A stretch of DNA of 54,182 nt from a virus (taxonomy: Duplodnaviria; Heunggongvirae; Uroviricota; Caudoviricetes), in IMG/VR virus record IMGVR_UViG_2585427735_000009. One strand, given 5' to 3'. The translations under genes were made by a program, and so were the position numbers. Shown here one piece after another: positions 28,561-54,182 of this stretch (positions are counted from its first letter, which is position 1; every line of letters begins with the position of its first letter). The notes beneath the pieces are model-generated. The model searched no databases. It worked only from the letters and a program-made list of their open reading frames with translations, and was not told the origin of the DNA.

Positions 28561-28788
28561 TTAGCTGACTTGTTTCGCACCAACAGAACGGCATATTCCG
28601 CTGTAAACTTCTGTCGCACCTTCGCGATCAAGTCCGGCAGATATCACCATTCGTGTGCGGTCATTAAATTCAAAAAGTAAATCGCCACATTCTTTATTTT
28701 CGGCCAGTGAAATCACCTTCACGTTATCGAAATTAACCAGGTAAAAGCGTCCGTAAATATCAGGAATATTAAATACCGCCATAATCAC
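28561..28788 (-). CDS. Hypothetical small early protein
   Basis: 75-aa ORF immediately downstream of B. Confidence 0.4.
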   Translation of the reverse strand: MIMAVFNIPDIYGRFYLVNFDNVKVISLAENKECGDLLFEFNDRTRMVISAGLDREGATEVYSGICRSVGAKQVS

Positions 28789-29726
28789 ACCTGTGAGAGT
28801 AATTCAGGGTTGGTATAAACCTCTTTAAAGGCCGCATTAATATGTTTTTCTGTCAGCGCCGCGCCTTCACCGCTGGCGGTGAGCCACGCCTGGTTAAGCG
28901 TATGTGTCAGAACGCGTAACGCTCCCGGCTTTTCAGCGATAGCCTGCATGACGGCCAGCTCGGCCTCACCACTGATCCCCCACGCCATGGCAATGGCCAG
29001 CACATCCGCCTTTTTGGCCTTGCGAAGTTGTTTTGTACGGGCAAGACGGCTGAACAGGCGCGATAAATCATCAAAGGCGCGGCGTCCACCTTTAAACAAT
29101 CCGCGCGGGTTACCAATAAGCACCATCCCGATCCCCGTGGCGTCCTGAATTGCCCGGAGTTGCTCCAGACCGTCAATACCAAGATGATCCGCCTCATCCA
29201 CAATCACCAGTCCACGCGTTCCCATCAGGCGACGGCGGATGGCGCGGGATAATGCCCCTTTGTTCGCGCGGGTGTAATCAATCCCCAGCGCATCGGCCAG
29301 CTCCAGCAGACACTCCGTGACGCTGGAGTGCGCGGGTGACAGGGTGATCATCCAGGTGTTTGGTTGCTCCTGGCAGTAATTACGGGCAGTGGCCGTTTTA
29401 CCCACACCCGGTACGCCCACAATAACGTTAATACAGCCCATCAGGCGAACCGCCTGAAACAGTGCGCGCAGCTCCTGGACTGTCTGAGTTTCCACAAACT
29501 GCGGCGGTTCCGGCAGTGCGCTTTGTTTATTCCAGTTCTCATACCAGGAGCGCAGGGAAGCAGCCACAGCAGCGTTATCGCCTTTATATTTTCCCTTACG
29601 GAAAGCCGATAATGTGCCGTCGGAAATTCCCGCCTCTCTGGCGATGGCATACTGCGTCAGTACGCCGCCATCAATAAGTTCATCAATGGTCTTGATTACA
29701 TCGTTAATATCGGTCATATTATTCAC
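28785..29726 (-). CDS. B: DNA transposition protein B (AAA+ ATPase, Mu B-like)
   Basis: 313 aa; N-terminal HTH, Walker A VGVPGVGKT, Walker B VIVDEADHL; colinear with Mu B. Confidence 0.9.
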   Translation of the reverse strand: MNNMTDINDVIKTIDELIDGGVLTQYAIAREAGISDGTLSAFRKGKYKGDNAAVAASLRSWYENWNKQSALPEPPQFVETQTVQELRALFQAVRLMGCINVIVGVPGVGKTATARNYCQEQPNTWMITLSPAHSSVTECLLELADALGIDYTRANKGALSRAIRRRLMGTRGLVIVDEADHLGIDGLEQLRAIQDATGIGMVLIGNPRGLFKGGRRAFDDLSRLFSRLARTKQLRKAKKADVLAIAMAWGISGEAELAVMQAIAEKPGALRVLTHTLNQAWLTASGEGAALTEKHINAAFKEVYTNPELLSQV

Positions 29727-34724: not shown

Positions 34725-35960
34725 CTACGATAACCGCGCATTCAACATGGCTATCTGTTCGTCGTTCATGTCATCAATCCACATACCGTAAATTTCATAC
34801 ACCATCTGCGCAGTTTCATGCCCCATTTGGCTGGCTATAAATGCCGGGTTCGCTCCTGCCGTCAACAGCCAGCAGGCAAAAGTATGCCGCGTATGGTACG
34901 GATTACGGCGGCGAATACCAGCACGTTTTACTGCTGCATTCCACCTTGCCCCCAAACTGCTTACCGAGTAATAAGGTTTTTGTTTTCCGTTACACACCCT
35001 GGGCATGAAAACAAAATGCAGTTTTTGCTTTTCGGTTCTGCCGTACTCCCGATGATAAAAGGTGATTTCGCTTTTGCGATGATGCCCGGTCAGTTTGTAT
35101 TGCTCCTTCAGTGCTTCAAGAGCAGGCTGCAGTAGTGTTACTGTTCGGATCCCGGCATTTGTTTTTGGGGGACCGAACATATCAAGTATCGTCAGGTTTC
35201 TTCTGACATTCACTATTCCCTTTTCGAGATCCACATCCTCCCACGCCAGAGCTGCCAGTTCCCCGTGACGAAGTCCTGAGTAAACGGCAAATTTCCACAA
35301 GTTCTGGCTCTGTCCTTTTTCACTTTCCATTAATGCATTGAATTCTGTTTTAGATAACGGATCAGGCTTTATTCTGTTTCGCTGTAATTTTTTTACTCCT
35401 TCAAATGGTTTGGTTGATATAAATCCCGACTGATACGCAAAACGCAACAGCGAACAGAGCAGGGCGATATAGTTATCAACTGTGCGCACGGTTCTTCCTT
35501 TTTTGTTGGATCTTGGATTATCCAGGTAAAGCGTTTCTCCATGCAGCAGTTCATTCCGGTAGTTTAAGATATCGCTATAACGAATATGTGATATCGGGGT
35601 ACTTTCACAAATTATTATTCTGAGTGTTTTTAATTGTGATTTCGTTTTCTTCATTGTGTTTGTTGTTAACTCTGTCTCTTTAATTTTTGTCCAGATATCA
35701 CAAAGCTCTCCGAACGTTTTTATGACTCTCGTTGTCACCATTTTTGCCCCAGTGCTGGACTGGGGAAAACGTCTTAAATACTCAAATTCACCGGAGTTTA
35801 TTTCATGAACTATCAGCGCTCTTAAATTTCCGGCCTTTTTAATATTACTGTTTGTAATCTCCCAGCCTTTTAATGTTTCCCGACATCGTTTTCCTCGAAA
35901 CATGAACCAGATGCGAATGTATCTACCTCTAATCTCGACACCTGTTGGTAATTTAGACAT
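34725..35960 (-). CDS. intR: Tyrosine integrase (Rac IntR-like)
   Basis: 411 aa; C-terminal catalytic region with RHTFA...H..Y-type residues; adjacent to ttcA attachment site. Confidence 0.92.
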   Translation of the reverse strand: MSKLPTGVEIRGRYIRIWFMFRGKRCRETLKGWEITNSNIKKAGNLRALIVHEINSGEFEYLRRFPQSSTGAKMVTTRVIKTFGELCDIWTKIKETELTTNTMKKTKSQLKTLRIIICESTPISHIRYSDILNYRNELLHGETLYLDNPRSNKKGRTVRTVDNYIALLCSLLRFAYQSGFISTKPFEGVKKLQRNRIKPDPLSKTEFNALMESEKGQSQNLWKFAVYSGLRHGELAALAWEDVDLEKGIVNVRRNLTILDMFGPPKTNAGIRTVTLLQPALEALKEQYKLTGHHRKSEITFYHREYGRTEKQKLHFVFMPRVCNGKQKPYYSVSSLGARWNAAVKRAGIRRRNPYHTRHTFACWLLTAGANPAFIASQMGHETAQMVYEIYGMWIDDMNDEQIAMLNARLS

Positions 35961-36708: not shown

Positions 36709-37518
36709 TTATTCCTCTGAATTATCGATTACACTGTATTCCCCGGTTAATACAGAGGAATCTGCAGGATCGATTGTCAGTGGTTCCTTTTCATCCATTG
36801 ATACTGCACGCTGGATCTCAATTGATACGGGCAGATATTTGAACAGGCGACGAATAGCCGTTTTCTTTGCCATTTCTTCCCAGTGAGTTACCCACGGCCC
36901 GTTATTACCAGCTTTACTCAGGCTGCGCACCAGCTCAATCTGTTTGCGCGTCATAACTTCAAACTGAGTACCTCCGTCTTTCAGTCTTGCGACAGCATAG
37001 ACGTGGGTAACCGGGGCATCTTCGTTTTCTCCCGGGCGGTGTATTAACTTTTCATCAAGGCCAAATTCGAAGCTAAACTCGTCACCTTCACGGACAACAC
37101 GGGCTGACAGGCTGGCGATTTGACCAGAACGGCGAGCCAGATCAATCATGCCGCGATAGCCAATGATTAGCTGAACGTTCTTTTTACCGCTCTTTTCGTT
37201 TTTATTACCAAAAGGCAGTAAATATGCATGACCGAGGGCGCTACCTGGCTCAAGTCCGAGCTGTGAACACTGTACGATCGCACTGACAAAACTCATAGTG
37301 TCACAGTTTCCTAACGCCGGAACTTTACGAATTTCTGTGGTGGCGATACGGATCATACGTTCAGCCGTCATATGGCGTGGAAGAGCTGCTGCCAGTTGCT
37401 CTTTCATTGATGGCTGGTTAATAAAACTAATCACGTCGCTATTTTTAACTGCTGCTGGTGCACGGTTTCCCTGAGTTTTTTGCAGATCGGCTTTTGCGAT
37501 TGGTGGTTGCTTAGTCAT
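36709..37518 (-). CDS. recT: Recombination protein RecT
   Basis: ATG at 37518 ([13 protein letters not shown]...), 269 aa; downstream of recE with 8-nt overlap. Confidence 0.92.
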
Positions 37519-40111
37519 TTGCATATTCCTTAGCCCAGCGGGGCAGTGATAATGTCTTAATAGCTGGCCATTCATCGGTATTCAGGCAGTCAGACAGGGT
37601 TCGCAGATTGCGGTGATATTCCTGTTGACCTGCCAGTTTTGCTTCTTCGCCCATCATGAAAATTTCAACCGGATAACGTCCGCATTCAATAGTTGTGCTG
37701 GCAACCAGAAAAACGAAAGTTGGCTGCACTCCAAACTGTGCTTCATAACCGTCACTGTAGAATGCATCCTGAACGTGATAGCGGTAGTCGTAATAAGCGG
37801 TTTTGAATCGTTGAATATCCGCCGTAGTTTTCACGTCCATGATCCAGTGAAATTCAGGGATAATTTTGTCCGGACGGCACCGACACAAAATTCCTGTTTC
37901 AGGATCTTCCCAGTAAATTGATGATTCAGCGTGTCCGGCGCTTTCAACAAGCCATTGCCCCAGCGGCAAAGCCATAACGCTTTGATACATGAGTTCAATT
38001 TTCCGGCCTTCTTCCGCAGTGATAACCGTTTTTCCTGTGCTTGCGCATTCCATCAGAAACGCTTTCTCTTCTTCTTTTCCGGCGTTTGTACGGCGGTTAA
38101 ATTCAGGTGCTACGATAAAGCGGTTACTGAATTCTTCCGGTTCAAGTACCCGGCAGTGGAAAGCAGTTCCTAAATCGAGCGTTTTTGTCTTTGTGGTGTC
38201 CACGGGGGCATTTTTACGCCACAAATATAGTGCCGGAGTATCAGCAATGTCATCGAGCTGAGACTTACTGATACCGGGACCCGCGTGGTAATTCTCATTC
38301 GAAATTCCGTAATAAATACCTGGCTCTATGTCTTCTACGATTACGGGATCTGCGACTTCGCCAGTTTCATCACTGCAATCGCGATGCGGATCGCTGCCAG
38401 CATTCTCATTGTGCGGATGTTCAGCGCCTTCCATTTCCTCCGGATCATTTTCCTTAGCTTCAACCTGACTCTCTTCAGCGAATGTTTCCTGGTATGTTGC
38501 GTCCCCCACCCCCGCCCCACAGTCAGGGCAGTTACCCCCGCCAGTCTGGCCGCAGGCATTGCAGGCTATTTCCGGTTCCTGTTGCACTACTGGCTCAGGT
38601 TGATTCATATCTGGGCTGGTTTTTTCCGTTTCTGGCTGGTTCTGGTACACACAATCGCGAGTCTGGATCCCCTTTACCCATTTCGGATCGTTCGGGTCGC
38701 TAATTCCGTCAACAAATTCACCACGTGATGCAGCAAGCAATTTATCGGCATCGACAGGATTTTTTGATGGAATGTTTTTCCGGGCTTCATGGAGTTCTGC
38801 CCGCAGTTCCTGATATTTCGCATCAACAGAATTTACCTGTGACTGAGCATCCAGCGGCTGCGTGTCCTGATGATGTTCAGTTGCGTCCGGTTCCATTGTT
38901 TCAGCCTCTCCCTGTTCAACTGCCGTTGTTCCAGATGGTTGCGGTTTTTCTTCATCATCCTGTTTTCCTTCTTCTGTTACTCGCTGCGGCATCGGGGCAG
39001 AGGAGCGACCGCAGGCAATATCCACGATTTCCGGATCAGGGTTGGCATGATCGGTTTCAGTCAGTACTTTGTTCAGATATTCAGTGACGTGCGCGGGGAT
39101 GACCTCGATCCCAATTGGTGCTTCTTTTACGGACGCAACCACGATGGCGCGGGAATAATCCAGCCCGCCAGGCATGGTGATGAATTTGTCGCGGAAAACA
39201 GAAAAGGGCGGTTTATTTTCAGCGATAATTTCCTCAATGCGTTTAGCGTGTGCCGGATGAAGGTTATAGATGTCCAGATCCATTGAACGGGCCAGTACGC
39301 CAGTGGCTACGTCGCGCGCCAGTGACGTCAGATCGTGTACGAAACTTTCGCCGCGATCGGTGAGGTTTCCGCCGCCAGCATTAGCACCGGAAGCCGTGCG
39401 AGTGATGTGTGAAACACGATTACCCTTCATCCACTCTTTTGTCAGCAGTCCTCGATCGGTGTAGTCAGCGTTCAGGTATGCTTCGAAAAAAGCAGTTATC
39501 AGTCCCAGGTTTGAATTACCAGGATTAGGGAAAACTTTGTCAGTGTCACGAACCAGTTTGTGGAGTTCGCGAATTTCCAGCGGGTCGAGCAGGCTGGTTT
39601 TGTGGGAAACAGCCAGGGCAGTAACAGCCGGTAGTTCTTCAGCCCGAGCAATGTGTAATGCCTGGAGTCCGTCGCGTGAAACGTGCGTTACCGGTTTTTC
39701 GCTGCCGTGTTGAGCAAGCCAACGAATGGGCAGTTCCTGGCCAGAAATTGGGAGTAGCATATTCTCCTCAATCTCAGTCATGTCTTCGCCGTTGACGTTG
39801 GTATTGCCTTGATAGTGAGCGTTGTCTGGTGCTGCTCCCGGTTTTAGTTCCCATGTCATGGAGTCTTTGCTGAGTTGATAGCGTTCACTCCAGGTAAAAT
39901 CGATCTCACCTTCAGCGGGCAGGTCATTAACGACAGGAAAATTCGTGGCAACAGCTTTAAAATAGCTGCTCAGTTTTTTACCTGACTTAACGATCAGGTA
40001 GTCCAGAGTGGCACAGGTCGATTCAAAATCGTTGCTTGCCCACAGGACGACGTCAGGTTCACCGGATGATTTTTTCGCTTTCCGTAACAGGAAGAGTGGT
40101 TTTGTGCTCAT
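37511..40111 (-). CDS. recE: Exodeoxyribonuclease VIII (RecE)
   Basis: 866-aa ORF; acidic central region and C-terminal nuclease domain; size as recalled for K-12 RecE. Confidence 0.92.
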
Positions 40112-40954: not shown

Positions 40955-41395
40955 AATTATCTCCATTTTTACAAATGAACTCTGTTGATGCGGTGCCTGG
41001 TGCCTCCAGGTGACTGCAACCAGTTAACAATTACAGTCGGCTTTCCCACCCAAACCAATAAGGACTAACATGACTTTTAACTGTGCCACGTGCGCTTAGC
41101 CGCATTCACCGCATCACAAAATTCACTTTAAAAAGGGCGGACATCAGCCGAACTTCAAGAAAAAAACTGATGCCGCCAGGACTACACACAGCAATGTCGT
41201 TATTTACAACCGGAGGCGCACTCCCACCATTTAAATTTAACAGACAAGACCGACTCTTTATGGATATCGGAAATGCGCCTTCGTGTTGTGCCCGGTTTTA
41301 TTTCACCACCTCCGGGCTTCGGTGGTCTCGGCTATACCCCTACAGCGAGAGCTTGTGTTAACATTTCAATACCCTTACAGTTGAGAGTTATTGAT

Positions 41396-41884
41396 ATGTT
41401 GGATGTATTTACTCCATTGTTGAAACTTTTTGCTAACGAGCCACTCGAAAGACTTATGTATACGATTATCATTTTTGGTCTCACTCTCTGGCTGATACCG
41501 AAAGAGTTTACTGTCGCATTCAATGCTTATACTGAAATACCTTGGCTCTTTCAGATTATCGTTTTTGCCTTTTCTTTCGTGGTCGCCATTTCCTTCTCAA
41601 GATTGCGAGCACATATTCAAAAGCATTATTCATTACTACCAGAGCAACGAGTATTGCTTCGTTTATCTGAGAAAGAAATCGCTGTATTTAAAGATTTCCT
41701 TAAAACAGGAAATCTTATTATCACTTCTCCTTGCCGTAACCCGGTTATGAAAAAATTAGAACGGAAGGGCATCATTCAACATCAGAGTGATAGCGCAAAC
41801 TGTTCTTATTATCTCGTCACCGAAAAATACTCCCATTTTATGAAGTTATTCTGGAACAGCAGGAGTAGACGTTTTAATCGTTAG
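41396..41884 (+). CDS. sieB: Superinfection exclusion protein B
   Basis: ATG at 41396 (MLDVFTPLLKLFANEPLERLMYTIIIFGLTLWLIPKEF...), two hydrophobic segments; 162 aa. Confidence 0.8.
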   Translation: MLDVFTPLLKLFANEPLERLMYTIIIFGLTLWLIPKEFTVAFNAYTEIPWLFQIIVFAFSFVVAISFSRLRAHIQKHYSLLPEQRVLLRLSEKEIAVFKDFLKTGNLIITSPCRNPVMKKLERKGIIQHQSDSANCSYYLVTEKYSHFMKLFWNSRSRRFNR

Positions 41885-45282: not shown

Positions 45283-46008
45283 ATGGAGACCGTTTTTGAC
45301 GCACTGAAAGCAATGGGAAAAGCCTCTTCCCAGGAAGTGGCAGCACGTCTGGGAATGACCCGGGATGAGGCGATTAACGAGCTGTGGAAACTGAAGCGTC
45401 GTGGGGAAGCTGATAACAAGGGCCCGATGTGGTGGTTGACTCAAACCGACGAAAACGCATCTGTAGCACAGGCTTCTAAAGTGACAGCGCAAATGCTGAT
45501 CGAGGCGATTGAACAGCATGGCCCTAAAGCGGCTGATGAACTTGCACTGATATTCAGAATTACTTCCCGCAGGGTGAACTCATCGCTGGCTATGGCCATC
45601 AGCAAAGGTCGTCTGATTCGCGTAAATCAGAACGGTAAATTTCGTTACTGCCTGCCGGACGGTAATTTACCAGCAGAGCCGAAAGTTGTATCGGTAGTGA
45701 AAACACCTGGTAAAGGCTTTCCTCAGCCAGCCGGTGTTGCGTTACCAGTACAGGAAGCGGCAACACAGGAAGAAATTAAAACAGATACTGTGGGGGACAT
45801 TGTGCAGTCACTACCATCGTTCACTGAAACGCGAGCCAATGACCTGATTATACCATCGCTGCAAATGGCAAACCGCGAACTGCGCCGGGCGAAAAGTTAT
45901 GTCCAGAAGTGGGAGCGAGTCTGCGCCGCGCTGCGTGAGCTGAACAAGCACCAGGATATTGTCCGTCAGATTGTCGATTCCTCCAGTCGTATTGTGTCGG
46001 AAAAGTGA
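45283..46008 (+). CDS. Hypothetical winged-helix protein (YdaW position)
   Basis: ATG at 45283 with GGGAGGAAA RBS (METVFDALKAMGKASSQEVAARLGMTRDEAINELWKLKRRG...). Confidence 0.45.
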   Translation: METVFDALKAMGKASSQEVAARLGMTRDEAINELWKLKRRGEADNKGPMWWLTQTDENASVAQASKVTAQMLIEAIEQHGPKAADELALIFRITSRRVNSSLAMAISKGRLIRVNQNGKFRYCLPDGNLPAEPKVVSVVKTPGKGFPQPAGVALPVQEAATQEEIKTDTVGDIVQSLPSFTETRANDLIIPSLQMANRELRRAKSYVQKWERVCAALRELNKHQDIVRQIVDSSSRIVSEK

Positions 46009-46024
46009 TTCCTGGGGAGGGCTT

Positions 46025-46447
46025 ATGGCAAAAGTATTTACACAGGAAGAGCGAGAAAAAATTAAAGGGCAGATTGTTGATCTTGTACGCCAGAGCGGGC
46101 GAGAGACGTTACGACAACTGGAAGCTAAAACGGGGGCGACAAGATATCTGATAAGCGCTCTTGCTAGGGAGTTGGTTGCGAATGGTGATGTATACAACTC
46201 TGGCTATGGGTTATTTCCGTCTGAGCAGGCACGTCAAGACTGGCAAAACGCCCGCAAAAAACTATCGAGGGCAAAGGTGAAGAAACCAGTTGTGGTTGAT
46301 CTGGACCTTATTTGGTCATTACCAGACGGAGAAATACGTCGCTACGACAGGCGTCTGAACATAATTTGCCGTGAGTGCCGGAAGAGTGAAGTTATGCAGC
46401 GTGTATTAGCATTCTATCAGGGAAATGTTCGGTATTTATTGAAGTGA
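46025..46447 (+). CDS. Hypothetical protein with N-terminal wHTH-like region
   Basis: ATG at 46025 with GGGGAGGG RBS (MAKVFTQEEREKIKGQIVDLVRQSGRETLRQLEAKTGATRYL...). Confidence 0.45.
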   Translation: MAKVFTQEEREKIKGQIVDLVRQSGRETLRQLEAKTGATRYLISALARELVANGDVYNSGYGLFPSEQARQDWQNARKKLSRAKVKKPVVVDLDLIWSLPDGEIRRYDRRLNIICRECRKSEVMQRVLAFYQGNVRYLLK

Positions 46448-46656
46448 CGAGATTAAAGACCATTAATTCATATGTGAATTGACAGTTTCATGGCACAGGA
46501 TACGGCTAGCGTGGTTGTCTGTTTTGTGCCAGGGGCGGGCCTAACTAAGTTCACACAACATTGATTATTGAAGATTAGGTCAGAAATAAATAGGTTATTT
46601 TGATAATTTAGTTACGTTAGAATGCCGCAGTGTACAAAGTAAAAATGAGGAATAAT

Positions 46657-48018
46657 ATGACTCGGAGTGAAATAAACGTCTGGGATAAGAGACGAGGCAC
46701 CAATAGTCATCGTGTGGAGGAGATTCGATCTGAAGCTCAGCACGACCTTTCTCGACTGATTCACTCGTCTGCTTTCAGACGATTGCAATCCAAAACACAG
46801 GTTCTTGGTCTGGGTGAAAGTGATTTCTACCGCACACGACTGACTCATTCTATGGAAGTCGCACAAATCGGTTCAGGTCTTCTTGCTAAGCTGAAAATAA
46901 AATATAAAGGTAAAGAGCAAGAGCAATTTTTACCAGATAACGATCTTATGCAGGCAGTATGTCTCGCACATGATATTGGACATCCTCCATTTGGTCACGG
47001 CGGTGAGGTAGCTCTTAACTACTGTATGCAGGATTACGGTGGTTTTGAAGGAAACGGTCAGACACTTCGCATTCTCTCGAAACTAGATAAGTATACCGTT
47101 GAACACGGACTCGATCCTACACGCAGACTTCTGCTAGGCATACTGAAATATCCGGTTAAATACTCGGATCTAGTGGTTACAAAAGACAGAATCCCGGCCA
47201 CTATCGGATCGCCGAACTGGCTCTTTAAGTCATCTGATTTTAAACCTCCAAAATGCTATCTAGATTCAGAATGCGATGTTGTAGAATTTGCTCTTTCACC
47301 ATTTACTGAACAGGATCGGAGGCTTTTTACTTCCGTTGAAGATGGTCAAACTAAATCCGATCATAAAAAAGCTTCTTATAAAGCTCTCGATACAACCATC
47401 ATGGATCTTGCCGATGAAATTTCGTATTCGCTGCACGATTTGGAGGATGCTATTTCTCTCGGAATGGTGACACGAGAAATGTGGATGGAGCATTTCAGTG
47501 AATATGAAACCCTATTTACTAACTGCCATGGAGAAACATTTTCCGCAACATGTGAATCTGTCGCGGATAGCCTTTTTGGTGAAAGTTACAAGAGAAAAGA
47601 GTGCATCGGGATGCTGGTTCACCTGATGATTACAAGCGTTGAGCTTATTACAAAGAATCCAGCATTCGAATGTGGCATGCTCAAATATAATGCGGTCCTT
47701 CCGGAAGCGGTCGAAGCACTACGGTTTAAAATTTTCAAACTGGTCAAAAATAAAGTAATTAAGCATGAAAATGTACAGCAGCTTGAATTCAAGGGACAAA
47801 AGTTGATTGTTGAGCTTTTCGGTGTGCTGGCTAACGATCCGTGTCGGTTTCTACCGGCATCAACGAGGGAAATTTACGAGCGGCAGACTAGCTTGGACGA
47901 GAAGGCTGGTATGCGAGTCATTTGCGACTATGTTTCAGGGATGACTGATGACTATGCAACAAAGCTTTATGAGAAGATCCTTATTCCACGCAAAGGGTCT
48001 ATTTTTGACCATCTCTAA
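46657..48018 (+). CDS. dGTP triphosphohydrolase (Dgt-family HD-domain dGTPase); candidate anti-phage dNTP-depletion enzyme
   Basis: ATG at 46657 with GAGGA RBS; motifs AFRRLQSKTQV, RTRLTHSMEVAQIG, AHDIGHPPFGHGGE, LADEISYSLHDLEDA match Dgt HD-domain signatures as recalled; AT-rich relative to Rac core. Confidence 0.82.
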   Translation: MTRSEINVWDKRRGTNSHRVEEIRSEAQHDLSRLIHSSAFRRLQSKTQVLGLGESDFYRTRLTHSMEVAQIGSGLLAKLKIKYKGKEQEQFLPDNDLMQAVCLAHDIGHPPFGHGGEVALNYCMQDYGGFEGNGQTLRILSKLDKYTVEHGLDPTRRLLLGILKYPVKYSDLVVTKDRIPATIGSPNWLFKSSDFKPPKCYLDSECDVVEFALSPFTEQDRRLFTSVEDGQTKSDHKKASYKALDTTIMDLADEISYSLHDLEDAISLGMVTREMWMEHFSEYETLFTNCHGETFSATCESVADSLFGESYKRKECIGMLVHLMITSVELITKNPAFECGMLKYNAVLPEAVEALRFKIFKLVKNKVIKHENVQQLEFKGQKLIVELFGVLANDPCRFLPASTREIYERQTSLDEKAGMRVICDYVSGMTDDYATKLYEKILIPRKGSIFDHL

Positions 48019-48079
48019 TGCGGCAAGAATGATGCTCTGAGTTCAATTGACCTATAAACATTAACCAAGGCATCTACCA

Positions 48080-48099
48080 GGGGGATATCAAATCCCCCC
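48080..48099 (+). terminator. Hairpin GGGGGAT-ATCAA-ATCCCCC, candidate terminator after dGTPase gene
   Basis: 7-bp G/C-rich stem 62 nt after the dGTPase stop, followed by a weakly T-rich stretch (ATTCTGAATTTGTT). Confidence 0.4.
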
Positions 48100-48428
48100 A
48101 TTCTGAATTTGTTCGTGCAGAATCGGTGAACGTTCTCATCTGAGCGTTAAACGCCAATAATCGTTGATCTACATTGATCATTAATACACCTTAATACCAT
48201 TAGCGTCTTACTCCGTTATGAGAACAAACGCGAACTGACCTGCCCCCAGTATTAGTGACCTTCAGCTACGGTAACTTGTCCGCTTCGTGCCAGAAGCGGA
48301 CATCCATAGAGAAATAAGCGATCAGTTCTTAAATTTGTTGTGATTTTTTGATTTTTTTGTATTCGCAAAGGGATTTGTGTTGGTTGTATAATTACCTAAT
48401 ATTCATACAGTTGAATGGGAGATGTGGG

Positions 48429-49322
48429 ATGAAGTTCTCGTACAGACATGGTTTTGATCCTGAGTATAATAAAAAGCCGATACGGGAAGATGCTCCAGAG
48501 TGGCTTCGCTCTTTATTTTTTGTAACTGTCCTCGATAATTTTTTGTACATTGATGGTGATAGCCGCATTACGAATGATGAGAACAAGCCGTTGGGTATTA
48601 AGGCTTTGATCGAGCGACTTTGCGCAGAGAATGGTCAAGAAACAGATCATGAGGATTTCGATTCATGGTACTGCTATGATGCTTTGAAAGCGCGTTTGCA
48701 ACATATGCGTTGGTTTCAATTTTATGATGCTGTTGAGATTATCGGAGATCTATTAAGAAAAAGAGATGTAGAAAGAGGCCATACTTGGGGTAAGAAGGCA
48801 TTAGAAGACATTACTTTTACATCATATCGTCAGAAATTGAACGAGTTATTCGCATCTCGAAATATTGACTGGAAAATGAATTCTGCTGGTAGGTTAGAAA
48901 CACCACTACCAAATGAATTAGAACAAAAAATCGATGAAACTAACAACTTATTGCAAGACCAGTTTGAACCTGCAAGGAGGCACTATGTGAAAGCCCGGGC
49001 TTTTGCATTAGGTGCGCATAAGGATCCAGAAAATTCCATAAAAGAATCAATAAGTGCAATAGAAAGCATGTGTCGGACTTATTATCCTTCAGCCTCAACC
49101 TTGGGCGATGTATTAAAACTGATGAGAAAAGAAAACACTATCTCACCTATGCTTTTAACGGTGATAGAGAAATTTTACGCTTATACAAATGCAGAGCCAG
49201 CAGTAAGACATGGTAGCAACAAGGTTTCTTCTGTCTTGGAATACGATGCTGAATTCGTGTTGCATATATCAGCAGCATTTATTAGAACAATAATACAAAG
49301 AAAAGCTGTTTTGGATAACTAA
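48429..49322 (+). CDS. Hypothetical protein, possible Abi/HEPN-like abortive-infection candidate
   Basis: ATG at 48429 (MKFSYRHGFDPEYNKK...), about 297 aa, AT-rich; possible R-x6-H motif (RAFALGAH) in C-terminal half; upstream extended -10 TGTATAAT near 48386. Confidence 0.5.
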   Translation: MKFSYRHGFDPEYNKKPIREDAPEWLRSLFFVTVLDNFLYIDGDSRITNDENKPLGIKALIERLCAENGQETDHEDFDSWYCYDALKARLQHMRWFQFYDAVEIIGDLLRKRDVERGHTWGKKALEDITFTSYRQKLNELFASRNIDWKMNSAGRLETPLPNELEQKIDETNNLLQDQFEPARRHYVKARAFALGAHKDPENSIKESISAIESMCRTYYPSASTLGDVLKLMRKENTISPMLLTVIEKFYAYTNAEPAVRHGSNKVSSVLEYDAEFVLHISAAFIRTIIQRKAVLDN

Positions 49323-49562
49323 GTCAGACTTACAGCCAACTGACTGTCTCTTATTATTCAAAACATAATAATGTTAGGTCCGCTTATCGCACATCAGGGA
49401 CAACCATACTCAAATCTCCCACATTGCAGGAGATTTGAGTGTGAACACGTCACCGTGGAACAAAGACTGTATCATCGGTCAAAAAAGACCTGGTTATCTA
49501 GCAAAAACTTTTAACATACCAACAAACTTAATTTATTTAAATGCTATTAATACAACTAATGT

Positions 49563-50789
49563 TTAAAATATATATTTTATATCAACCCAATTTTTAGCAT
49601 TATTGTCAACTAAAGTAACGCTATGTCCATGACTTGAATTTATAGCATCGATTACTGATTGTGATGGGTGTCCATGTGAATGACCATCCGACTGAGCTAT
49701 AAACAAAACATTATCAAAATCCGCAATTATTTTTTGATTGAAATTTAATTCCGAACCATGATGAGGTAATGTCATCACCCTTACCGTTTTAATCACTTTT
49801 GAATAGAATTCAGCCCATTTATTATAATACAATGATGTATTAAGCTTTGAGTCACCTGTTAATAAAACAGATCTAATTCCTTTATCTCTATCAAAGAGAA
49901 AATGTCGCTCAACCCGACTATTTCTAAAACTAAACCACTCACGAGAAGGCTCATTAACAATTTTCATCTCAGCTTCTTGATTATTAATAATCAAGAGATT
50001 GATTGATATTACATTATGATCGCCAGCAAGTTTTAAATAACACTCGCGTAATTTCTTTCTTTCCCCCGTGCTAGTTAATATTTTAAGCATTTTTTTCTTA
50101 CTTAACTCAGTAAAACCATTTTCTATTAACTGCTGACTGAAAATTTCAATTTTCTTACGTGAACGGGGCGGTATCCAAGAAATAAATGACATTAGTGTAT
50201 CAGTTTTGTTTTCCCCAATCCTTTTAACCAACCAACGGTTACATTCAACATCTCCTTTGGAGTCAGATATTTTCATTGGTAAGCTTACAGCGCTATCCTT
50301 AATGTTTTCACTATTAAATATAGGAGGGTCAAAATTATCATCAATATCACAGGGGTAAAGCAAAGATATATCTACCTCAGGCAACCTTGATTTTATCCAT
50401 TTGACAGGATCAATGAGAAATTCCATAAAAAGACCTGACGTAGAATTAGAGCATAGCTCCGATGCAATTAAGTAATAGCTATCATGGATATCTAGGTATG
50501 GTAATACAACCTTGCGTATTTTGTTATCTACAAGCTGACATAAATGGTCAAATCCATTTATATGGTCTGAATCCAAATGAGAGATGTATACCACATCAAT
50601 ATATTTCTCATCAATATTAAAGAGAGATTTAGCCACATCCATCTCCCTACGCAACGCATTTAATTGGTCACTTCCGCAGTCATACACATAACTGTAAAGC
50701 AAACTACCATCCCTTCCCCTCAGTCCGCCTAAACTAAATCCACCCTGGCCAACGGGAAACAATCTTTTATGAAATACTTCTCCGCTCAT
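49563..50789 (-). CDS. Standalone metallo-beta-lactamase-fold hydrolase (ComEC-type motifs), candidate nuclease
   Basis: 408 aa, ATG at 50789 with AAGGA RBS; MBL motifs HLDSDH (HxHxDH), LTGDSKL and LPHHGS; very AT-rich. Confidence 0.7.
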   Translation of the reverse strand: MSGEVFHKRLFPVGQGGFSLGGLRGRDGSLLYSYVYDCGSDQLNALRREMDVAKSLFNIDEKYIDVVYISHLDSDHINGFDHLCQLVDNKIRKVVLPYLDIHDSYYLIASELCSNSTSGLFMEFLIDPVKWIKSRLPEVDISLLYPCDIDDNFDPPIFNSENIKDSAVSLPMKISDSKGDVECNRWLVKRIGENKTDTLMSFISWIPPRSRKKIEIFSQQLIENGFTELSKKKMLKILTSTGERKKLRECYLKLAGDHNVISINLLIINNQEAEMKIVNEPSREWFSFRNSRVERHFLFDRDKGIRSVLLTGDSKLNTSLYYNKWAEFYSKVIKTVRVMTLPHHGSELNFNQKIIADFDNVLFIAQSDGHSHGHPSQSVIDAINSSHGHSVTLVDNNAKNWVDIKYIF

Positions 50790-51503
50790 ATATCCTTCTT
50801 ACACCCTAACGTGATCATAAAATTGTCTTAAAGTTAAGTTTAAAGCTAAAAAGTCACAGCTCATTCCAACTCGTGAGCAATAGGAATGTATATTCAATCA
50901 GTTAGAGGATCAACCCGATTTTCTCTAATGAGATTTCGCAACGCAGTACGAACAGCAGCTACTTCTGCCATCTCATTAACAACCACACTGGACTACAATC
51001 CCCTAAGTTCTACAGACTGTAACCATATCCTCTTCACAGAAATAATCTGATTAATGCTGAAGGTCATCTTTCTCGACGCGAATGTATGACATAACAACCT
51101 CAGTTAATTATCTTTCGATAGAAAAATACCTTCACAAAAGGTTTAAGCAACCCATCACAAGACAACACGCTAAGCTTGCCTTGTAAGCGTCCTGCTTAAC
51201 CGAACAGTTCGCTTTCAGAGGATCTCCGGAGAACAGCTCCGATGCCTTATAAGGCCAATGCTCGCTCCTCGCTCACTGCGGACCTAAGGTTTGGTCAGCT
51301 TGTTCGCACTCTGCCAAAAGCGGGAGTTACTCCCATTCGGTGTTAATCAATGTAGAGCAGATCAATCAACGACAAAGAAAATGAGAGGCATATCACTACT
51401 CATATGAAAATTATTGTAGTAAAGTGAGCCGTAAGTTCATCATTTATAAATCATATAGCATATATGTTATATCAATTTTAATTTAAATGGCAGAATAATT
51501 ACC

Positions 51504-52208
51504 ATGGAAAAAATTAAAACTCCTTGTCCATATTGTAAAGGTGAAAAAAATTGCCACATAATAGGCCATAAAAAAAGAGAATGGAGTGAGGATGATGGGG
51601 GCAACTATTTTTGGGCTGAAAGTGAATACAAATTATTAGAGTGTATGGGGTGCGACGGAATATTTACATATATTAAATCCCGTCACAGTGAAGATTACGA
51701 CATTGAAAGAGATGAGTCAGGCTATGATTGTATGGTATATAACTATCATATATCAACATATCCCACTCAAGAGCAAGAAGAGATTAGACCAACTTGGTTT
51801 GGTGAGACATTAAACAAAGATCGTCAGCTGTATGTAATAATGAACGAAATGTACATCGCATTTCAAAATAAATCATTCATTTTAGCGGCGATTGGACTTA
51901 GAACTATTTTTGACAGAACAGTTGAGGTTCTAAATATTCATCCAGGATATACATTAGGCCAGAAGGTTGACATTCTTAAAGAGGAAGGTTTTATTGGGGA
52001 AACAGAAAGGAGCCAACTTAAAATTGTAACCGAAGCTGGCAACTCAGCTGCACACAGGACATGGGCACCGAACGAAACTGAATTTAAATCGCTTTTGGTA
52101 ATTATAGAAAATTTTGTAATGCGAACAATACTAAAAAATGAGGATATATTTAAGATTACAGAAAAATTACCTGCGAAATATCCAAGACCTCCCAAAAAGC
52201 AAGAATAA
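51504..52208 (+). CDS. Zinc-ribbon protein with DUF4145/HEPN-like C-terminal domain (candidate Abi-type effector)
   Basis: 234 aa; N-terminal CPYC-x-CH ... CMGCDG zinc ribbon; C-terminal AAIGLRTIFDR...GETERSQLKIVTEAGNSAAH resembling the DUF4145 GNxxxH signature as recalled; AT-rich. Confidence 0.55.
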   Translation: MEKIKTPCPYCKGEKNCHIIGHKKREWSEDDGGNYFWAESEYKLLECMGCDGIFTYIKSRHSEDYDIERDESGYDCMVYNYHISTYPTQEQEEIRPTWFGETLNKDRQLYVIMNEMYIAFQNKSFILAAIGLRTIFDRTVEVLNIHPGYTLGQKVDILKEEGFIGETERSQLKIVTEAGNSAAHRTWAPNETEFKSLLVIIENFVMRTILKNEDIFKITEKLPAKYPRPPKKQE

Positions 52209-52704
52209 TGTACGTAAGTGTAAATAGAGCTAAGAGATTATATATTGACTCTGGTTATCTCTATTAGCACATGCTTTTTGTAATGCCTTAACTGATTATT
52301 TAAACTCCTGTCAGCTTTTCGCTCAAAGCGGACTAAAGTGTTGGCTTGTGACTGACTTAGCGCATTTAAGGAAGTGGTGGTGGTGACGGGGTGTTGTGTC
52401 CCATTTCCACAGAATAAATCAGAGAAACTATAGCGGCTGTAATGGCAATCTATGGTCTTGCTATTGCTCTTATGGATCACCTTTCTGATTGATTTCATAT
52501 TGGCGAGGTAACGGGAGTTAAGTAGAATAGCTGCGGGTGCTTGAGGCTGTCTGCCTCGGGCATGAACACCAAAGGCAGATAGAGAAAAGCCCCAGTTAAC
52601 ATTACGCGTCCGGCAAGACGCTTAACATTAATCTGAGGCCACATCTATGCTTTGCATACGTAGATTAGCCTCTTACCGACCAAAAGGTCAAGGAGAAGCA
52701 GGCT

Positions 52705-52860
52705 ATGAAGCAGCAAAAGGCGATGTTAATCACCCTGATCGTCATCTGTTTAACCGTTATAGTGACGGTACTGGTAACGAGGAAAGACCTCTGCGAGGTA
52801 CGAATCCGAACCGACCAGACGGAGGTCGCTGTCTTCACAGCTTACGAACTTGGGGAGTAA
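52705..52860 (+). CDS. hokD: Hok-family membrane toxin (HokD/RelF-like)
   Basis: Hand translation MKQQKAMLITLIVICLTVIVTVLVTRKDLCEVRIRTDQTEVAVFTAYELGE (51 aa); below ORF-track cutoff. Confidence 0.8.
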   Translation: MKQQKAMLITLIVICLTVIVTVLVTRKDLCEVRIRTDQTEVAVFTAYELGE

Positions 52861-52882
52861 GAGGACCAGCGGGGAGAAATCC

Positions 52883-52905
52883 CATAAGCGCTAACTTAAG
52901 GGTTG
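52883..52905. repeat. IS186 terminal inverted repeat
   Basis: CATAAGCGCTAACTTAAGGGTTG, matching the IS186 terminal repeat as recalled, preceded by G-rich target-like sequence GGGGAGAAATCC. Confidence 0.6.
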
Positions 52906-53053
52906 AACCATCTGAAGAATGCGACGCCTCGGTGCCTCGTTAAGACGATGCCTCGCGTTCTTCAATTGCGTTTTGTAGGCTGTCAGGGATACTGTCCCAC
53001 GAATGGCCACCTGTAAGCTCCAGATGACCATTTTTGTTATTCTCCACAACGAG

Positions 53054-54166
53054 TTAGTTCTTCTTTTCGGATCCGGCACTTCTGGGGGGGAAATCCAGCG
53101 ATGGCTGGATTATGTCGTCAATTAAAAATGCGGCGAGTAGATTAGCAAATATCCACGCTTTCGCGAGTTCAGGTTCCTTTGCACGCAAAGCATCCAGGTG
53201 CAGCAAACTTTTGAGCCGCTTAAAAGCCAGTTCAATTTGCCATCGCAGACGGTAACAATCAGCCACTTGCTCTGCTGAATATTCATCTTCCGGTAATGAT
53301 GTTAGCAATAGCACATGGCCCGCTGCTTCCAGCGTTTCCGCCTGAACTACTCGTCCTTTTCGACGATTCTCGCTGAGCAGTCGGGTTTTACTGATTAATG
53401 CTTTTTCGGGAGGAAGTGATACGGCAATGAGACGTGCCGGAAAGGGAGCTCCGGCTTTTTTATTACCTGAATTGCCTATCATTACAGTGGTTTCACCGTT
53501 CTTACCGCAATCCAGCCCGCGCAGAAAACCCATCATGTCAAAGCGCATTCCTTCTGCAGTTAACCAGCGCAATCCTCGCCAGTGAACCCGGACGATATAA
53601 TCAGCTTCTCCAAAAGCAAGTGAGCGGATACATTCGGGACGCGAACCGAATCCCCGGTCAGCAATGCGTATCTCGTCTGCCGTTTGCGCAAATCGGTCCA
53701 GCCGTTCAGCGTCTCTGCTGTCGGTTAGCTCAAAATCAGTGAACTGACAGGTATGAGGATCATATCCCATATGTAGTCGCCATTCAGCGCTGCCGCCCCC
53801 GGGCGCACTGATTGCTGTTCCATCGACAAGACGCAATCTCTTTCCGCTTGTACAACCCGTAACTGCGGCGCGTACAGCAAGTGTTTGTGCGGCAAGTATG
53901 CCAAACCAGTCGGCGGCATTCCGCAGCCGCTTCAGGAGAGCCACGTCAGATAATGTTGCAACGTCATGGAGCTGAGCCCATGCAGTGACTTCACGTAATG
54001 ACATCCCCCCGGGGCCGTAAGCCAGCCCCAGACGTAGCAGAGTTGCAGCATCACGAATTTCGCGGCGGCGGGTTAGAGCCCCGGCATTACGTGCCGAAGT
54101 ATCCAGTTCTTCGGGCTTACCAATATGGGCCAGAATTGCTGACCAGTTATCGTGAGAGTAATTCAT
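53054..54166 (-). CDS. IS186 transposase (IS4 family, DDE)
   Basis: ATG at 54166 (MNYSHDNWSAILAHIGKPEELDTSARNAG...), 370 aa. Confidence 0.85.
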   Translation of the reverse strand: MNYSHDNWSAILAHIGKPEELDTSARNAGALTRRREIRDAATLLRLGLAYGPGGMSLREVTAWAQLHDVATLSDVALLKRLRNAADWFGILAAQTLAVRAAVTGCTSGKRLRLVDGTAISAPGGGSAEWRLHMGYDPHTCQFTDFELTDSRDAERLDRFAQTADEIRIADRGFGSRPECIRSLAFGEADYIVRVHWRGLRWLTAEGMRFDMMGFLRGLDCGKNGETTVMIGNSGNKKAGAPFPARLIAVSLPPEKALISKTRLLSENRRKGRVVQAETLEAAGHVLLLTSLPEDEYSAEQVADCYRLRWQIELAFKRLKSLLHLDALRAKEPELAKAWIFANLLAAFLIDDIIQPSLDFPPRSAGSEKKN

Positions 54167-54182
54167 CGGCACGTTAAATCAT

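What the first reader, a model, noticed from the sequence alone, without database searches (positions are those of the whole stretch)
51504..52208. Zinc-ribbon protein with DUF4145/HEPN-like C-terminal domain
The N-terminus has two Cys pairs (CPYC...CH and CMGCDG) forming a probable zinc ribbon. The C-terminus (LAAIGLRTIFDR ... EAGNSAAHRTW) resembles the DUF4145 family, which is often fused to restriction or Abi proteins. As a solitary gene with its own start in the cargo block it is a candidate single-gene abortive-infection effector.
Basis: partly seen in the sequence, partly recalled or inferred. Interest (0 to 1): 0.65.

Follow-up and report, generated by a model that had tools for sequence, protein, structure and literature searches.

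The report
Solitary zinc-finger HEPN prophage defence candidate
This is a real, intact single gene carried by a prophage that fuses a four-cysteine zinc-binding domain to a HEPN-type (DUF4145) RNase-like domain, the same design as the recently characterised anti-phage protein RAZR, but it belongs to a separate, untested family that lacks RAZR's catalytic arginine.

Summary

The gene is solitary. It has no conserved neighbour in 63 non-redundant genome loci. The same ~1-kb low-GC cassette sits in three different E. coli prophage types. About half of 43 viral-contig homologues lie between gpS and gpV of P2-like prophages.

The design matches RAZR (PD-T7-4), a single-gene abortive-infection RNase. 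Family membership fails, however:
- The PADLOC PD-T7-4 model does not hit.
- Profile searches do not reach the RAZR chain 9y9c.
- The residue equivalent to catalytic R146 is T/V/I/A in all 166 relatives, whereas H184, R133 and usually R185 are conserved.

My best reading (confidence about 0.5) is a phage-triggered HEPN RNase defence gene with a different sensor domain and a non-canonical active site. RefSeq already labels it a DUF4145 protein. I rate it a new variant of a known kind, of moderate interest. No function has been tested.

The parts
51504..52208 (+). Complete CDS, 234 aa plus stop: an N-terminal Cys4 beta-domain fused to a C-terminal DUF4145/HEPN domain.
   Evidence: ORF listing. 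Pfam DUF4145 E 3.2e-11. AF2 model with mean pLDDT 83.3. dN/dS 0.15-0.19. The exact protein is on 381 contigs and is named a DUF4145 domain-containing protein.
51504..51761 (+). N-terminal beta-rich domain (residues 1-86), the putative zinc-binding sensor. It carries C8xxC11 (51525-51536) and C47xxC50 (51642-51653).
51762..51821 (+). Linker (residues 87-106) with conserved P87, P96 and W98.
   Evidence: P87 162/166, P96 161/166, W98 156/166. Lower pLDDT (63-80) in both models.
51822..52133 (+). HEPN-fold DUF4145 domain (residues 107-210). Helices are 107-121, 125-142, 151-160, 166-183 and 191-210. Conserved residues include R133, D137, K154, G179, H184 (52053-52055), R185, W187, P189 and E202.
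52029..52031 (+). Codon T176, eight residues before H184. This is where the DUF4145 consensus and RAZR (R146/H154) carry the catalytic arginine.
   Evidence: The position is T 69, V 51, I 35, A 9 and S 1 across the 166 aligned sequences, and never R or K. RAZR R146A abolishes defence (PMC13017515).
52134..52205 (+). Basic, proline-rich C-terminal tail (residues 211-234) with conserved P223.
   Evidence: pLDDT below 55. P223 is present in 162 of 166 sequences. This is the most variable segment between close copies.
51311..52335 (+). Mobile one-gene cassette: 193 nt of upstream non-coding DNA, the CDS, and about 125 nt downstream. GC content is 34.4% against 50.8% for the window.
   Evidence: The four-way DNA alignment shows that homology between the Rac-like, pin-adjacent and P2-like prophage contexts begins and ends at about these positions (contexts).
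51311..51503 (+). Conserved upstream region, presumed to hold the gene's own promoter or operator. It includes an AT-rich palindrome at 51444-51481.
   Evidence: The region is conserved together with the gene in all three contexts. The palindrome is I1. The consensus promoter scan found no confident sigma-70 site here and no terminator-like site anywhere in 50750-52950, so the promoter is inferred, not shown.
51544..51550 (+). A7 homopolymer at codons 14-16. It is intact here and shortened to A6 (a frameshift) in other E. coli copies.
   Evidence: Alignment with RM9513 and ET490. In those genomes PGAP calls a 158-aa product. Six of the 12 near-identical genomic copies are 1 nt shorter, and one carries an IS1 insertion.
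51264..51294 (+). Left copy of a 31-nt imperfect direct repeat (core GCTYYTCGCTCAnnGCGGAC), lying just outside the cassette.
   Evidence: Repeat D2, 74% identity, spacing 1050 nt. There are two matches in the window against 0 expected from shuffles.
52314..52344 (+). Right copy of the same repeat, at the right end of the cassette.
   Evidence: In EC11 (L003) the element occurs at the end of this cassette and again after the next gene.

Best explanation
The gene is a prophage-borne, single-gene anti-phage defence protein built like RAZR.

Proposed mechanism, by analogy with RAZR:
1. The protein is made in the lysogen from its own upstream region and stays inactive.
2. Its variable N-terminal four-cysteine beta-domain recognises a protein of an infecting phage.
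3. That binding switches on the C-terminal HEPN (DUF4145) domain, probably through a change in dimer or oligomer geometry.
4. The active domain cuts cellular and phage RNA, using the invariant H184.
5. Translation stops and the infection aborts.

The canonical HEPN arginine is missing. I propose that another conserved basic residue supplies the positive charge. The family-specific R185, next to H184, is the leading candidate. R133 in the second helix is an alternative.

Shown here: the domain architecture, the HEPN fold prediction, the residue conservation, the absence of a partner gene, and the cassette-like spread among prophages and plasmids. Inferred and untested: defence activity, RNase activity, the sensor role of the N-terminal domain, and abortive infection.
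For: - Conservation: H184 is invariant in 166 of 166 sequences and lies at the end of core helix 3, where the HEPN catalytic His sits. R133 (165/166), D137, K154, R185 (160/166), W187 and P189 are also conserved.
- Zinc site: four near-invariant Cys lie in two CxxC knuckles at predicted hairpin turns.
- Sensor-like variability: the N-terminal domain is more variable than the HEPN domain, as reported for the RAZR sensor domain.
- Solitary gene: no neighbour family is shared beyond one 11-locus element among 73 loci. Neighbour orientation is random (32+/28- upstream, 33+/25- downstream).
- Mobility: the same ~1-kb, 34% GC cassette occurs in Rac-like, P2-like (between tail-fibre assembly and sheath genes) and pin-adjacent prophage positions.
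- P2-like prophages: 21-24 of 43 IMG/VR loci place the gene between gpR-gpS and gpV-gpW-gpJ. Accessory and defence hotspots within P2 tail genes are documented (PMC13586616; PMC9122126).
- Local company: the window gene sits in a block with an anti-phage dGTPase, an AbiJ-like PADLOC candidate, SieB and hok/sok.
- Other neighbours include type I and type IIG restriction genes and DrmMI.
- Precedent: RAZR/PD-T7-4, a zinc finger plus DUF4145 protein, is a validated single-gene abortive-infection RNase that is non-toxic until a phage ring protein binds its zinc-finger domain.
- Coding constraint: dN/dS is 0.15-0.19.
Against: - No experiment exists for this family.
- The arginine of the R-x7-H motif, which is essential in RAZR (R146A abolishes defence), is T/V/I/A in every relative examined. 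Catalysis may therefore differ or be absent.
- PADLOC has no model that hits the protein. Its PD-T7-4 model touches only 4 of 140 relatives, at E>=0.021. NCBIfam has no hit.
- Single-sequence and profile searches do not reach the RAZR chain 9y9c_OA at E<=10, although that chain is in the library.
- The N-terminal domain is about 20 residues longer than the RAZR zinc-finger domain and has no convincing structural relative. The sensing mode cannot be transferred from RAZR.
- Roughly half of the near-identical E. coli copies are frameshifted or IS-disrupted, so the gene is often dispensable.
- tblastn finds no match in 50,697 deposited phage genomes.
Confidence: 0.5

Rival explanations
1. The HEPN domain is not a nuclease. 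Because the canonical arginine is lost, the protein acts by binding only. It could sequester a phage protein or RNA (superinfection exclusion or a decoy), or its HEPN-like domain could serve as a regulatory or ligand-binding module.
For: - The H-8 position is never basic in 166 relatives.
- Anantharaman et al. list HEPN families that have lost part of the motif, and note that toxicity without the motif occurs.
Against: - Absolute conservation of H184, and near-absolute conservation of R133, D137, K154 and R185, is hard to explain without an active site.
- HEPN families with H but no motif arginine are predicted to use other basic residues.
Confidence: 0.15
2. It is a toxin-type addiction or stabilisation gene for the mobile element. 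It would be a HEPN toxin held in check by its own N-terminal domain, or by an unrecognised antitoxin or small RNA in the conserved 193-nt upstream region, with no role in sensing phages.
For: - HEPN toxins of toxin-antitoxin systems are the closest solved folds (5yep, 7ae2, 8xdj).
- The cassette keeps 193 nt of conserved upstream DNA with a palindrome.
- It sits next to hok/sok and occurs on 68 plasmid records.
- Frequent frameshift inactivation could reflect a cost to the host.
Against: - No MNT-type or other conserved neighbour exists in 63 non-redundant loci.
- Rfam finds no RNA family in the upstream region.
- The RAZR precedent shows that this architecture is non-toxic on its own.
Confidence: 0.1
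3. It serves the phage rather than the host. For example, it could be a counter-defence or RNA-processing factor expressed during lytic growth of P2-like and lambdoid phages.
For: It is embedded among late tail genes in P2-like prophages, between gpS and gpV and between G and FI.
Against: - It is absent from most relatives of those phages and from all 50,697 deposited phage genomes.
- It also occurs in chromosomal and plasmid contexts next to restriction-modification genes.
- It has low GC and its own upstream region, which is typical of morons expressed from the prophage.
Confidence: 0.1
4. It is one component of a multi-gene system together with the neighbouring MBL-fold hydrolase (49563-50789, minus strand) and the AbiJ-like protein (48429-49319).
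For: The three genes are adjacent, all have low GC, and they co-occur in the Rac-like prophages of several E. coli strains.
Against: - The DUF4145 cassette occurs without either neighbour in the P2-like and pin-adjacent prophages, and in ET490, where an IS1 lies upstream.
- The MBL gene is on the opposite strand, 714 nt away.
- No MBL or AbiJ family recurs next to homologues elsewhere.
Confidence: 0.05

Closest known systems
RAZR (ring-activated zinc-finger RNase) = PD-T7-4. E. coli UMB1727, RRL46918.1, 219 aa, PDB 9Y9C/9Y6U. Sources: Vassallo et al. 2022 (PMC9519451) and Zhang et al. 2026 (PMC13017515).
   Same: - A single polypeptide of about 220-235 aa with an N-terminal Cys4 zinc domain, a linker and a C-terminal Pfam DUF4145 HEPN-like domain.
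- A stand-alone gene on mobile elements.
- The histidine of the GN-x-A-A-H type motif is conserved.
- The N-terminal domain is the more variable part.
- The expected output is RNA cleavage and abortive infection (inferred for this gene).
   Different: - There is no detectable sequence relationship. The PADLOC PD-T7-4 model misses the protein. Single-sequence and profile searches miss chain 9y9c_OA at E<=10.
- The catalytic R146 equivalent is T176 here and never basic in the family. A family-specific R185 follows the His.
- The N-terminal domain is larger (about 86 vs 65 residues), seven-stranded, and has no Rpb9-like match.
- Trigger, oligomeric state and phenotype are unknown here.
Pfam DUF4145 (PF13643) within the HEPN superfamily, DUF4145-like clade of Anantharaman et al. 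2013 (PMC3710099).
   Same: - It scores above the gathering threshold and has a HEPN fold.
- A zinc-ribbon fusion is one of the architectures listed for DUF4145.
- The R-x3-(D/E) pair in helix 2 (R133/D137) fits the conserved acidic/basic helix-2 feature described for HEPN domains.
   Different: The motif is reported as conserved in only about 80% of DUF4145 proteins. This family falls in the minority without the arginine. In that respect it resembles the sister 'c2405' group ('conserved H but lacks R'), which has a different N-terminal domain, AbiTii.
DS-38 (DefensePredictor system; WP_001313577.1, 366 aa; PMC13092281).
   Same: It is a validated single-gene E. coli defence protein that combines HEPN and zinc-finger modules.
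   Different: - The domain order is opposite: an N-terminal HEPN domain with a canonical R-x4-H (RNRVVH), followed by several C-terminal Cys clusters.
- There is no sequence similarity (BLASTP E 0.067 over 17 residues; hhalign probability 0.2%).
HEPN toxins of HEPN/MNT toxin-antitoxin systems (HepT, PDB 5yep, 7ae2, 8xdj).
   Different: Those toxins have an adjacent MNT antitoxin and a canonical R-x4-H. This gene has no conserved neighbour, lacks the motif arginine, and carries an N-terminal Cys4 domain.

Membership tests
Pfam DUF4145 (PF13643) | Profile HMM score above the curated gathering threshold. | tested here: met
   43.6 bits against a cutoff of 23.1, E 3.2e-11. Residues 115-201 align to profile positions 2-87 of 88. 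All 16 first-round homologues carry a precomputed PF13643 hit.
HEPN superfamily | A four-helix up-and-down core with an insert between helices 2 and 3. | tested here: met
HEPN superfamily | Catalytic histidine of the R-x(4-6)-H motif (R-x7-H in DUF4145/RAZR) at the end of helix 3. | tested here: met
   H184 is present in 166 of 166 sequences and lies directly after helix 166-183.
HEPN superfamily | Arginine of the same motif, 4-8 residues upstream of the histidine. | tested here: not met
   Positions 176-180 are T/V/I/A, D/E/N, A, G and S/N. No position between 170 and 183 has a conserved R or K.
RAZR / PD-T7-4 | An N-terminal Cys4 zinc-finger domain, a linker and a C-terminal DUF4145 domain in one protein of about 220 aa. 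| tested here: met
   C8, C11, C47 and C50 are conserved. DUF4145 covers residues 115-201. The protein is 234 aa.
RAZR / PD-T7-4 | Recognised by the family profile (PADLOC PDLC04109 PD-T7-4). | tested here: not met
   No PADLOC hit at E<=1 for the window protein. Only 4 of 140 relatives touch the model, with a best E of 0.021. The DefenseFinder model could not be run.
RAZR / PD-T7-4 | Detectable sequence similarity to RAZR(Ec), PDB chain 9y9c_OA. | tested here: not met
   phmmer and two family profiles give no match to that chain at E<=10. The chain is in the library. The RAZR sequence itself could not be retrieved for a pairwise or profile-profile alignment.
RAZR / PD-T7-4 | Both catalytic residues R146 and H154, each essential for defence. 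| tested here: not met
   The H154 equivalent (H184) is present. The R146 equivalent (T176) is absent. The mapping uses the collinear Pfam hit. It also uses a gapless match of a DUF4145-consensus bait to RAZR residues 90-167, which places the bait's R and H on residues 146 and 154.
RAZR / PD-T7-4 | A single-gene system with no partner gene. | tested here: met
   No conserved neighbour in 63 non-redundant genome loci. The gene stands alone in three E. coli prophage contexts.
RAZR / PD-T7-4 | Activation by ring-forming phage proteins (Erf-like Gp77, portal) through assembly of a 24-mer, non-specific ssRNA cleavage, and abortive infection. | not testable with these tools
   This needs phage assays, escaper mapping, biochemistry and cryo-EM.
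Zinc ribbon | Two CxxC knuckles at the turns of two beta-hairpins that coordinate one zinc ion. | tested here: inconclusive
HEPN/MNT type II toxin-antitoxin | An adjacent minimal nucleotidyltransferase antitoxin gene. | tested here: not met
   No nucleotidyltransferase family appears among the most frequent Pfam families (top 25 of 121 listed) matched by the 118 immediate neighbours. Neighbours are heterogeneous.
DS-38 (DefensePredictor) | An N-terminal HEPN domain followed by C-terminal zinc fingers, with sequence similarity to WP_001313577.1. | tested here: not met
   The domain order is reversed. There is no significant similarity.

The most novel reading that the evidence does not exclude
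This is a second, independent lineage of zinc-domain plus HEPN immune sensors. It is a widespread family (about 280 clusters at 50% identity with E<=1e-30) spread across several groups: Proteobacteria, Bacteroidota, Acidobacteriota, Cyanobacteria and Chloroflexi. In this reading:
- The catalytic arginine has moved from the classical position to the residue after the histidine (an H-R dyad in the AAAHRGWxP signature).
- A new seven-stranded Cys4 domain recognises a class of phage trigger different from RAZR's ring proteins.
- P2-like phages carry the gene in the gpS/gpV slot to exclude competitors.
Probability: 0.3. Interest if true: 0.6.

Novelty: new variant of a known kind. Interest (0 to 1): 0.4.

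Why it matters
If the gene is active, the zinc-domain-plus-HEPN design behind RAZR would not be a single family. It would be a recurring solution that current defence-finder models miss, at least PADLOC v2. That would add a common moron of P2-like and lambdoid prophages to the catalogue of defence genes.

The arginine-less active site would test how much of the HEPN motif is needed for RNA cleavage. The different sensor domain would test whether activation by the geometry of phage assemblies is general or specific to RAZR.

If the gene is inactive, it is simply one more annotated DUF4145 protein.

Tried and rejected
1. Retrieving the RAZR sequence for a direct alignment.
- The PDB sequence library does hold 9y6u/9y9c. 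This was shown by matching SECphi27 Gp77 and by a weak bait hit to 9y9c_OA.
- Five artificial DUF4145-consensus baits never ranked RAZR in the five printed alignments.
- The baits were written from memory and served only as fishing tools.

2. Structure searches.
- Foldseek against the PDB with the full model gave only weak hits (best E 0.026) and no RAZR chain.
- The afdb50 library was unavailable.

3. Identity with DS-38. Rejected on length, domain order and sequence.

4. A search of the DefensePredictor supplements for this protein or its accessions found nothing, but the large tables were truncated when stored.

5. A multi-gene system with the MBL and AbiJ-like neighbours. Rejected because the cassette occurs without them.

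6. Promoter and terminator scans.
- No terminator-like site anywhere in the scanned span (50750-52950), so none downstream of the gene.
- No promoter-like match lies in the conserved upstream region.
- The number of promoter-like matches (7) is no higher than in shuffles (5.9 +/- 3.0).

7. Rfam over 46000-54182 found only sok.

8. tblastn against 50,697 deposited phage genomes gave no match.

9. Domain-wise dN/dS among the close E. coli copies showed no sign of diversifying selection in the N-terminal domain.

Full report
**1. Observation**

Window 51504-52208 (+) is an intact ORF of 234 codons starting at the first in-frame ATG.

The gene is real and under constraint:
- dN/dS against two diverged E. 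coli copies is 0.19 and 0.15.
- The exact protein is on record on 381 contigs as "DUF4145 domain-containing protein [Escherichia coli]".
- A profile of 14 homologues finds 2722 cluster representatives at E<=1e-3 and 279 at E<=1e-30. Nearly all are about 230 aa and match end to end.

**2. Domains**

*C-terminal domain.*
- Pfam DUF4145 (PF13643) matches residues 115-201 with E 3.2e-11 and 43.6 bits, against a cutoff of 23.1.
- NCBIfam and PADLOC give no hit.
- An AlphaFold2 model built on the homologue alignment has mean pLDDT 83.3.
- Foldseek against the PDB was weak but pointed the same way.

*N-terminal domain.*
- Residues 1-86 are predicted as seven strands. C8xxC11 lies in the turn between strands 3-7 and 14-30. 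C47xxC50 lies between strands 35-47 and 53-61. That is the arrangement of a zinc ribbon.
- I therefore call the domain "Cys4, zinc-ribbon-like" rather than a proven zinc ribbon.

**3. Conservation**

I aligned 166 sequences: the window protein, 16 close homologues and 149 representatives.

| Residue | Count (of 166) |
|---|---|
| C8 | 154 |
| C11 | 153 |
| C47 | 161 |
| C50 | 161 |
| P87 | 162 |
| P96 | 161 |
| W98 | 156 |
| Y117 | 158 |
| R133 | 165 |
| D137 | 160 |
| K154 | 164 |
| G179 | 162 |
| H184 | 166 |
| R185 | 160 |
| W187 | 165 |
| P189 | 164 |
| E202 | 159 |
| P223 | 162 |

Where the cysteines are not counted, the sequence is almost always gapped at that position.

H184 sits at the end of the third core helix. 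Anantharaman et al. place the HEPN R-x(4-6)-H motif exactly there.

The motif arginine is missing. The position eight residues before H184 is T (69), V (51), I (35), A (9) or S (1), and never basic. No conserved basic residue lies anywhere in positions 170-183.

The family signature is (D/E)-A-G-(S/N)-A-A-A-H-R-G-W-x-P. Its arginine directly follows the histidine. HEPN families with H but no motif arginine are known (PaREP1/8, and "c2405" in the DUF4145-like clade). They are thought to use other basic residues.

The N-terminal domain is more variable than the HEPN domain. Mean column entropy is 2.74 against 2.02 bits, and median identity to the query is 26% against 38.5%.

**4. Context in the window**

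The window holds a Mu-like prophage at about 1-32000, then ttcA, then a Rac-like prophage. The Rac-like prophage includes an integrase (34728-35960), RecE (37511-40111), SieB (41273-41881) and replication genes.

Between the replication module and the late-gene region lies a low-GC cargo block:
- HD-domain dGTPase, 46630-48018. RefSeq calls it an "anti-phage deoxyguanosine triphosphatase".
- An AbiJ_NTD4 protein that matches PADLOC candidate PDC-S32 (E 1.6e-33).
- An orphan MBL-fold protein on the opposite strand.
- The DUF4145 gene.
- hok with its sok RNA.
- An IS186/IS421-type transposase.

Sources for the block are. The DUF4145 cassette is 34.4% GC against 50.8% for the window.

**5. The gene is solitary and mobile**

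Fourteen of 5426 complete E. coli genomes carry the gene. A four-way DNA alignment shows that the same ~1-kb block, window ~51311-52335, sits in three unrelated prophage positions. The block comprises 193 nt upstream, the CDS and about 125 nt downstream. The three positions are:
- The Rac-like cargo block.
- A P2-like prophage, alone between the tail-fibre assembly and tail-sheath genes (82% nt identity).
- A Mu/e14-like prophage, directly after a pin-type invertase (91% identity).

Across 73 loci from other species (63 non-redundant), no neighbouring gene family recurs beyond one 11-locus Sphingomonadales element and a 3-4-locus Pseudomonas prophage. Neighbour orientation is random.

Immediate neighbours are heterogeneous. 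They include P2 gpV and gpS, type I and type IIG restriction genes, DrmMI, transposases and T4SS genes.

In IMG/VR, 47 viral contigs encode a homologue. In 21-24 of 43 analysable loci the gene lies between gpR-gpS and gpV-gpW-gpJ of P2-like prophages. From my own knowledge, this is the slot occupied by the non-essential orf30 in phage P2. Accessory and defence hotspots within P2 tail genes are documented (PMC13586616; PMC9122126).

Homologues also occur on 68 plasmid records. Of these, 51 are from Yersinia, including ~100-kb Y. pestis plasmids at 42% identity. No deposited phage genome has a match.

**6. Comparison with what is known**

Searching the literature for DUF4145 led to RAZR, formerly PD-T7-4.
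- It is a 219-aa E. coli protein with an N-terminal Cys4 zinc-finger domain and a C-terminal DUF4145 domain.
- It is a single-gene abortive-infection system and is non-toxic on its own.
- It is activated when its zinc-finger domain binds ring-shaped phage proteins: Gp77 (Erf-like) of SECphi27, or the portals of T3, T7 and SECphi18.
- It then forms a 24-mer and cleaves ssRNA non-specifically.
- R146A and H154A each abolish defence.

The window protein shares this architecture and genomic lifestyle, but it fails the membership tests I could run:
- The PADLOC PD-T7-4 model does not hit it. That model touches only 4 of 140 relatives, at E>=0.021.
- Neither the single sequence nor two family profiles reach the RAZR chain 9y9c_OA at E<=10. 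That chain is in the library.
- The R146 equivalent is T176.
- The N-terminal domain is about 20 residues longer and shows no Rpb9-like match.

DS-38, another validated zinc-finger/HEPN protein, is unrelated. It has 366 aa, the reverse domain order, and no sequence similarity.

Anantharaman et al. listed zinc-ribbon fusions among DUF4145 architectures in 2013. RefSeq already names this protein a DUF4145 domain-containing protein.

**7. Mechanism**

*Best supported (confidence about 0.5).* The gene is a prophage-encoded defence gene. Its variable Cys4 domain senses a protein of an infecting phage. Its HEPN domain, using H184 and a relocated basic residue (R185, or R133), cleaves RNA to abort the infection.

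*Shown here:* the architecture, the fold prediction, the conservation, the lack of a partner gene, and the moron-like mobility.

*Inferred from the RAZR precedent and general HEPN knowledge:* everything about activity, trigger and phenotype.

*Rivals:*
- A non-catalytic binding protein, because the arginine is lost (0.15).
- An addiction-type toxin (0.10).
- A function that serves the phage (0.10).
- A component of a system with the neighbouring MBL and AbiJ-like genes (0.05). This is contradicted by the contexts where the cassette stands alone.

**8. Limits**

- Neighbour genes were called with a crude longest-ORF rule.
- The conservation analysis covers only the best 150 representatives of 2722.
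- I could not obtain the RAZR sequence or superpose structures. The claim of no relationship beyond the shared Pfam domain rests on HMM searches.
- The mapping of R146 to T176 rests on the collinear Pfam hit and on a gapless bait alignment.

**9. Verdict**

This is a new, unvalidated variant of a known kind: a RAZR-like zinc-domain/HEPN single-gene defence candidate with a non-canonical active site and a different sensor domain. It is of moderate interest.

Noticed in passing
window 51544-51550: An A7 run at codons 14-16 is shortened to A6 in E. coli RM9513 and ET490. The gene is frameshifted right after the first CxxC, and PGAP then annotates a 158-aa product from Met77 (WP_157924236.1). Six of the 12 near-identical genomic copies are 1 nt shorter, and one carries an IS1 insertion. 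This could be phase variation or inherited inactivation.
   Followed up: partly
window 51264-51294 and 52314-52344; L003 11002-11021 and 12100-12119: A 20-31-nt element (GCTYYTCGCTCAnnGCGGAC) flanks the cassette as an imperfect direct repeat. There are 2 matches against 0 expected from shuffles. In EC11 it recurs after the next gene too, as if it marked the 3' ends of cassettes. A weaker copy lies on the minus strand at window 48278-48297, between the dGTPase and AbiJ-like genes.
   Followed up: partly
window 48429-49319 (+): This 297-aa protein has an AbiJ_NTD4 domain (E 3.8e-8) and a strong match to the PADLOC single-gene candidate PDC-S32 (E 1.6e-33). It may be a second HEPN-type abortive-infection candidate in the same cargo block. 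RefSeq calls it hypothetical.
   Followed up: partly
window 49563-50789 (-): An orphan 408-aa MBL-fold hydrolase with 34% GC. It has only weak matches to MBL components of defence systems (LmuA 2.7e-12, DRT-associated MBL, Avs1a, 6A-MBL) and no partner gene nearby.
   Followed up: no
window 46630-48018 (+): An HD plus HD_assoc protein that RefSeq annotates in the identical S40 locus as an anti-phage deoxyguanosine triphosphatase. It opens the low-GC defence block of the Rac-like prophage.
   Followed up: partly
window 52535-52860 and 53054-54172: A hok toxin gene (52705-52860) with its sok antisense RNA (Rfam RF01794, 105 bits, 52535-52710). An IS186/IS421-type transposase gene follows and runs to the end of the window. 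Strain S40 has no IS at the corresponding position, while ET490 has a frameshifted one.
   Followed up: partly
window 1-32000: A Mu-like prophage lies next to ttcA and the Rac-like prophage, so the window spans two adjacent prophages. Its genes include MuA transposase (29803-31890, minus strand), MuB (28788-29726, minus), Mu portal (16073-17668, minus), tail sheath and tape measure.
   Followed up: partly
window 51444-51481: An AT-rich 22-nt-arm palindrome (82% complementary) lies 23 nt upstream of the start codon, inside the conserved upstream region. It could be an operator or promoter element. No confident sigma-70 promoter was found by the consensus scan.
   Followed up: no
plasmid hits H25-H39 (for example NC_017266.1 96710-97360): Full-length homologues (42% identity) are encoded on ~100-kb Yersinia pestis plasmids. 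Homologues at 47-48% identity are on 100-126-kb Y. enterocolitica plasmids. Yersinia accounts for 51 of the 68 plasmid records with a match.
   Followed up: no
L086 7507-7755 (-), L087 309-869 (-): In 6-7 of the P2-like viral contigs, a small divergently oriented ORF (83 or 187 aa, no Pfam hit) sits just upstream of the homologue. It is not conserved across the family.
   Followed up: no
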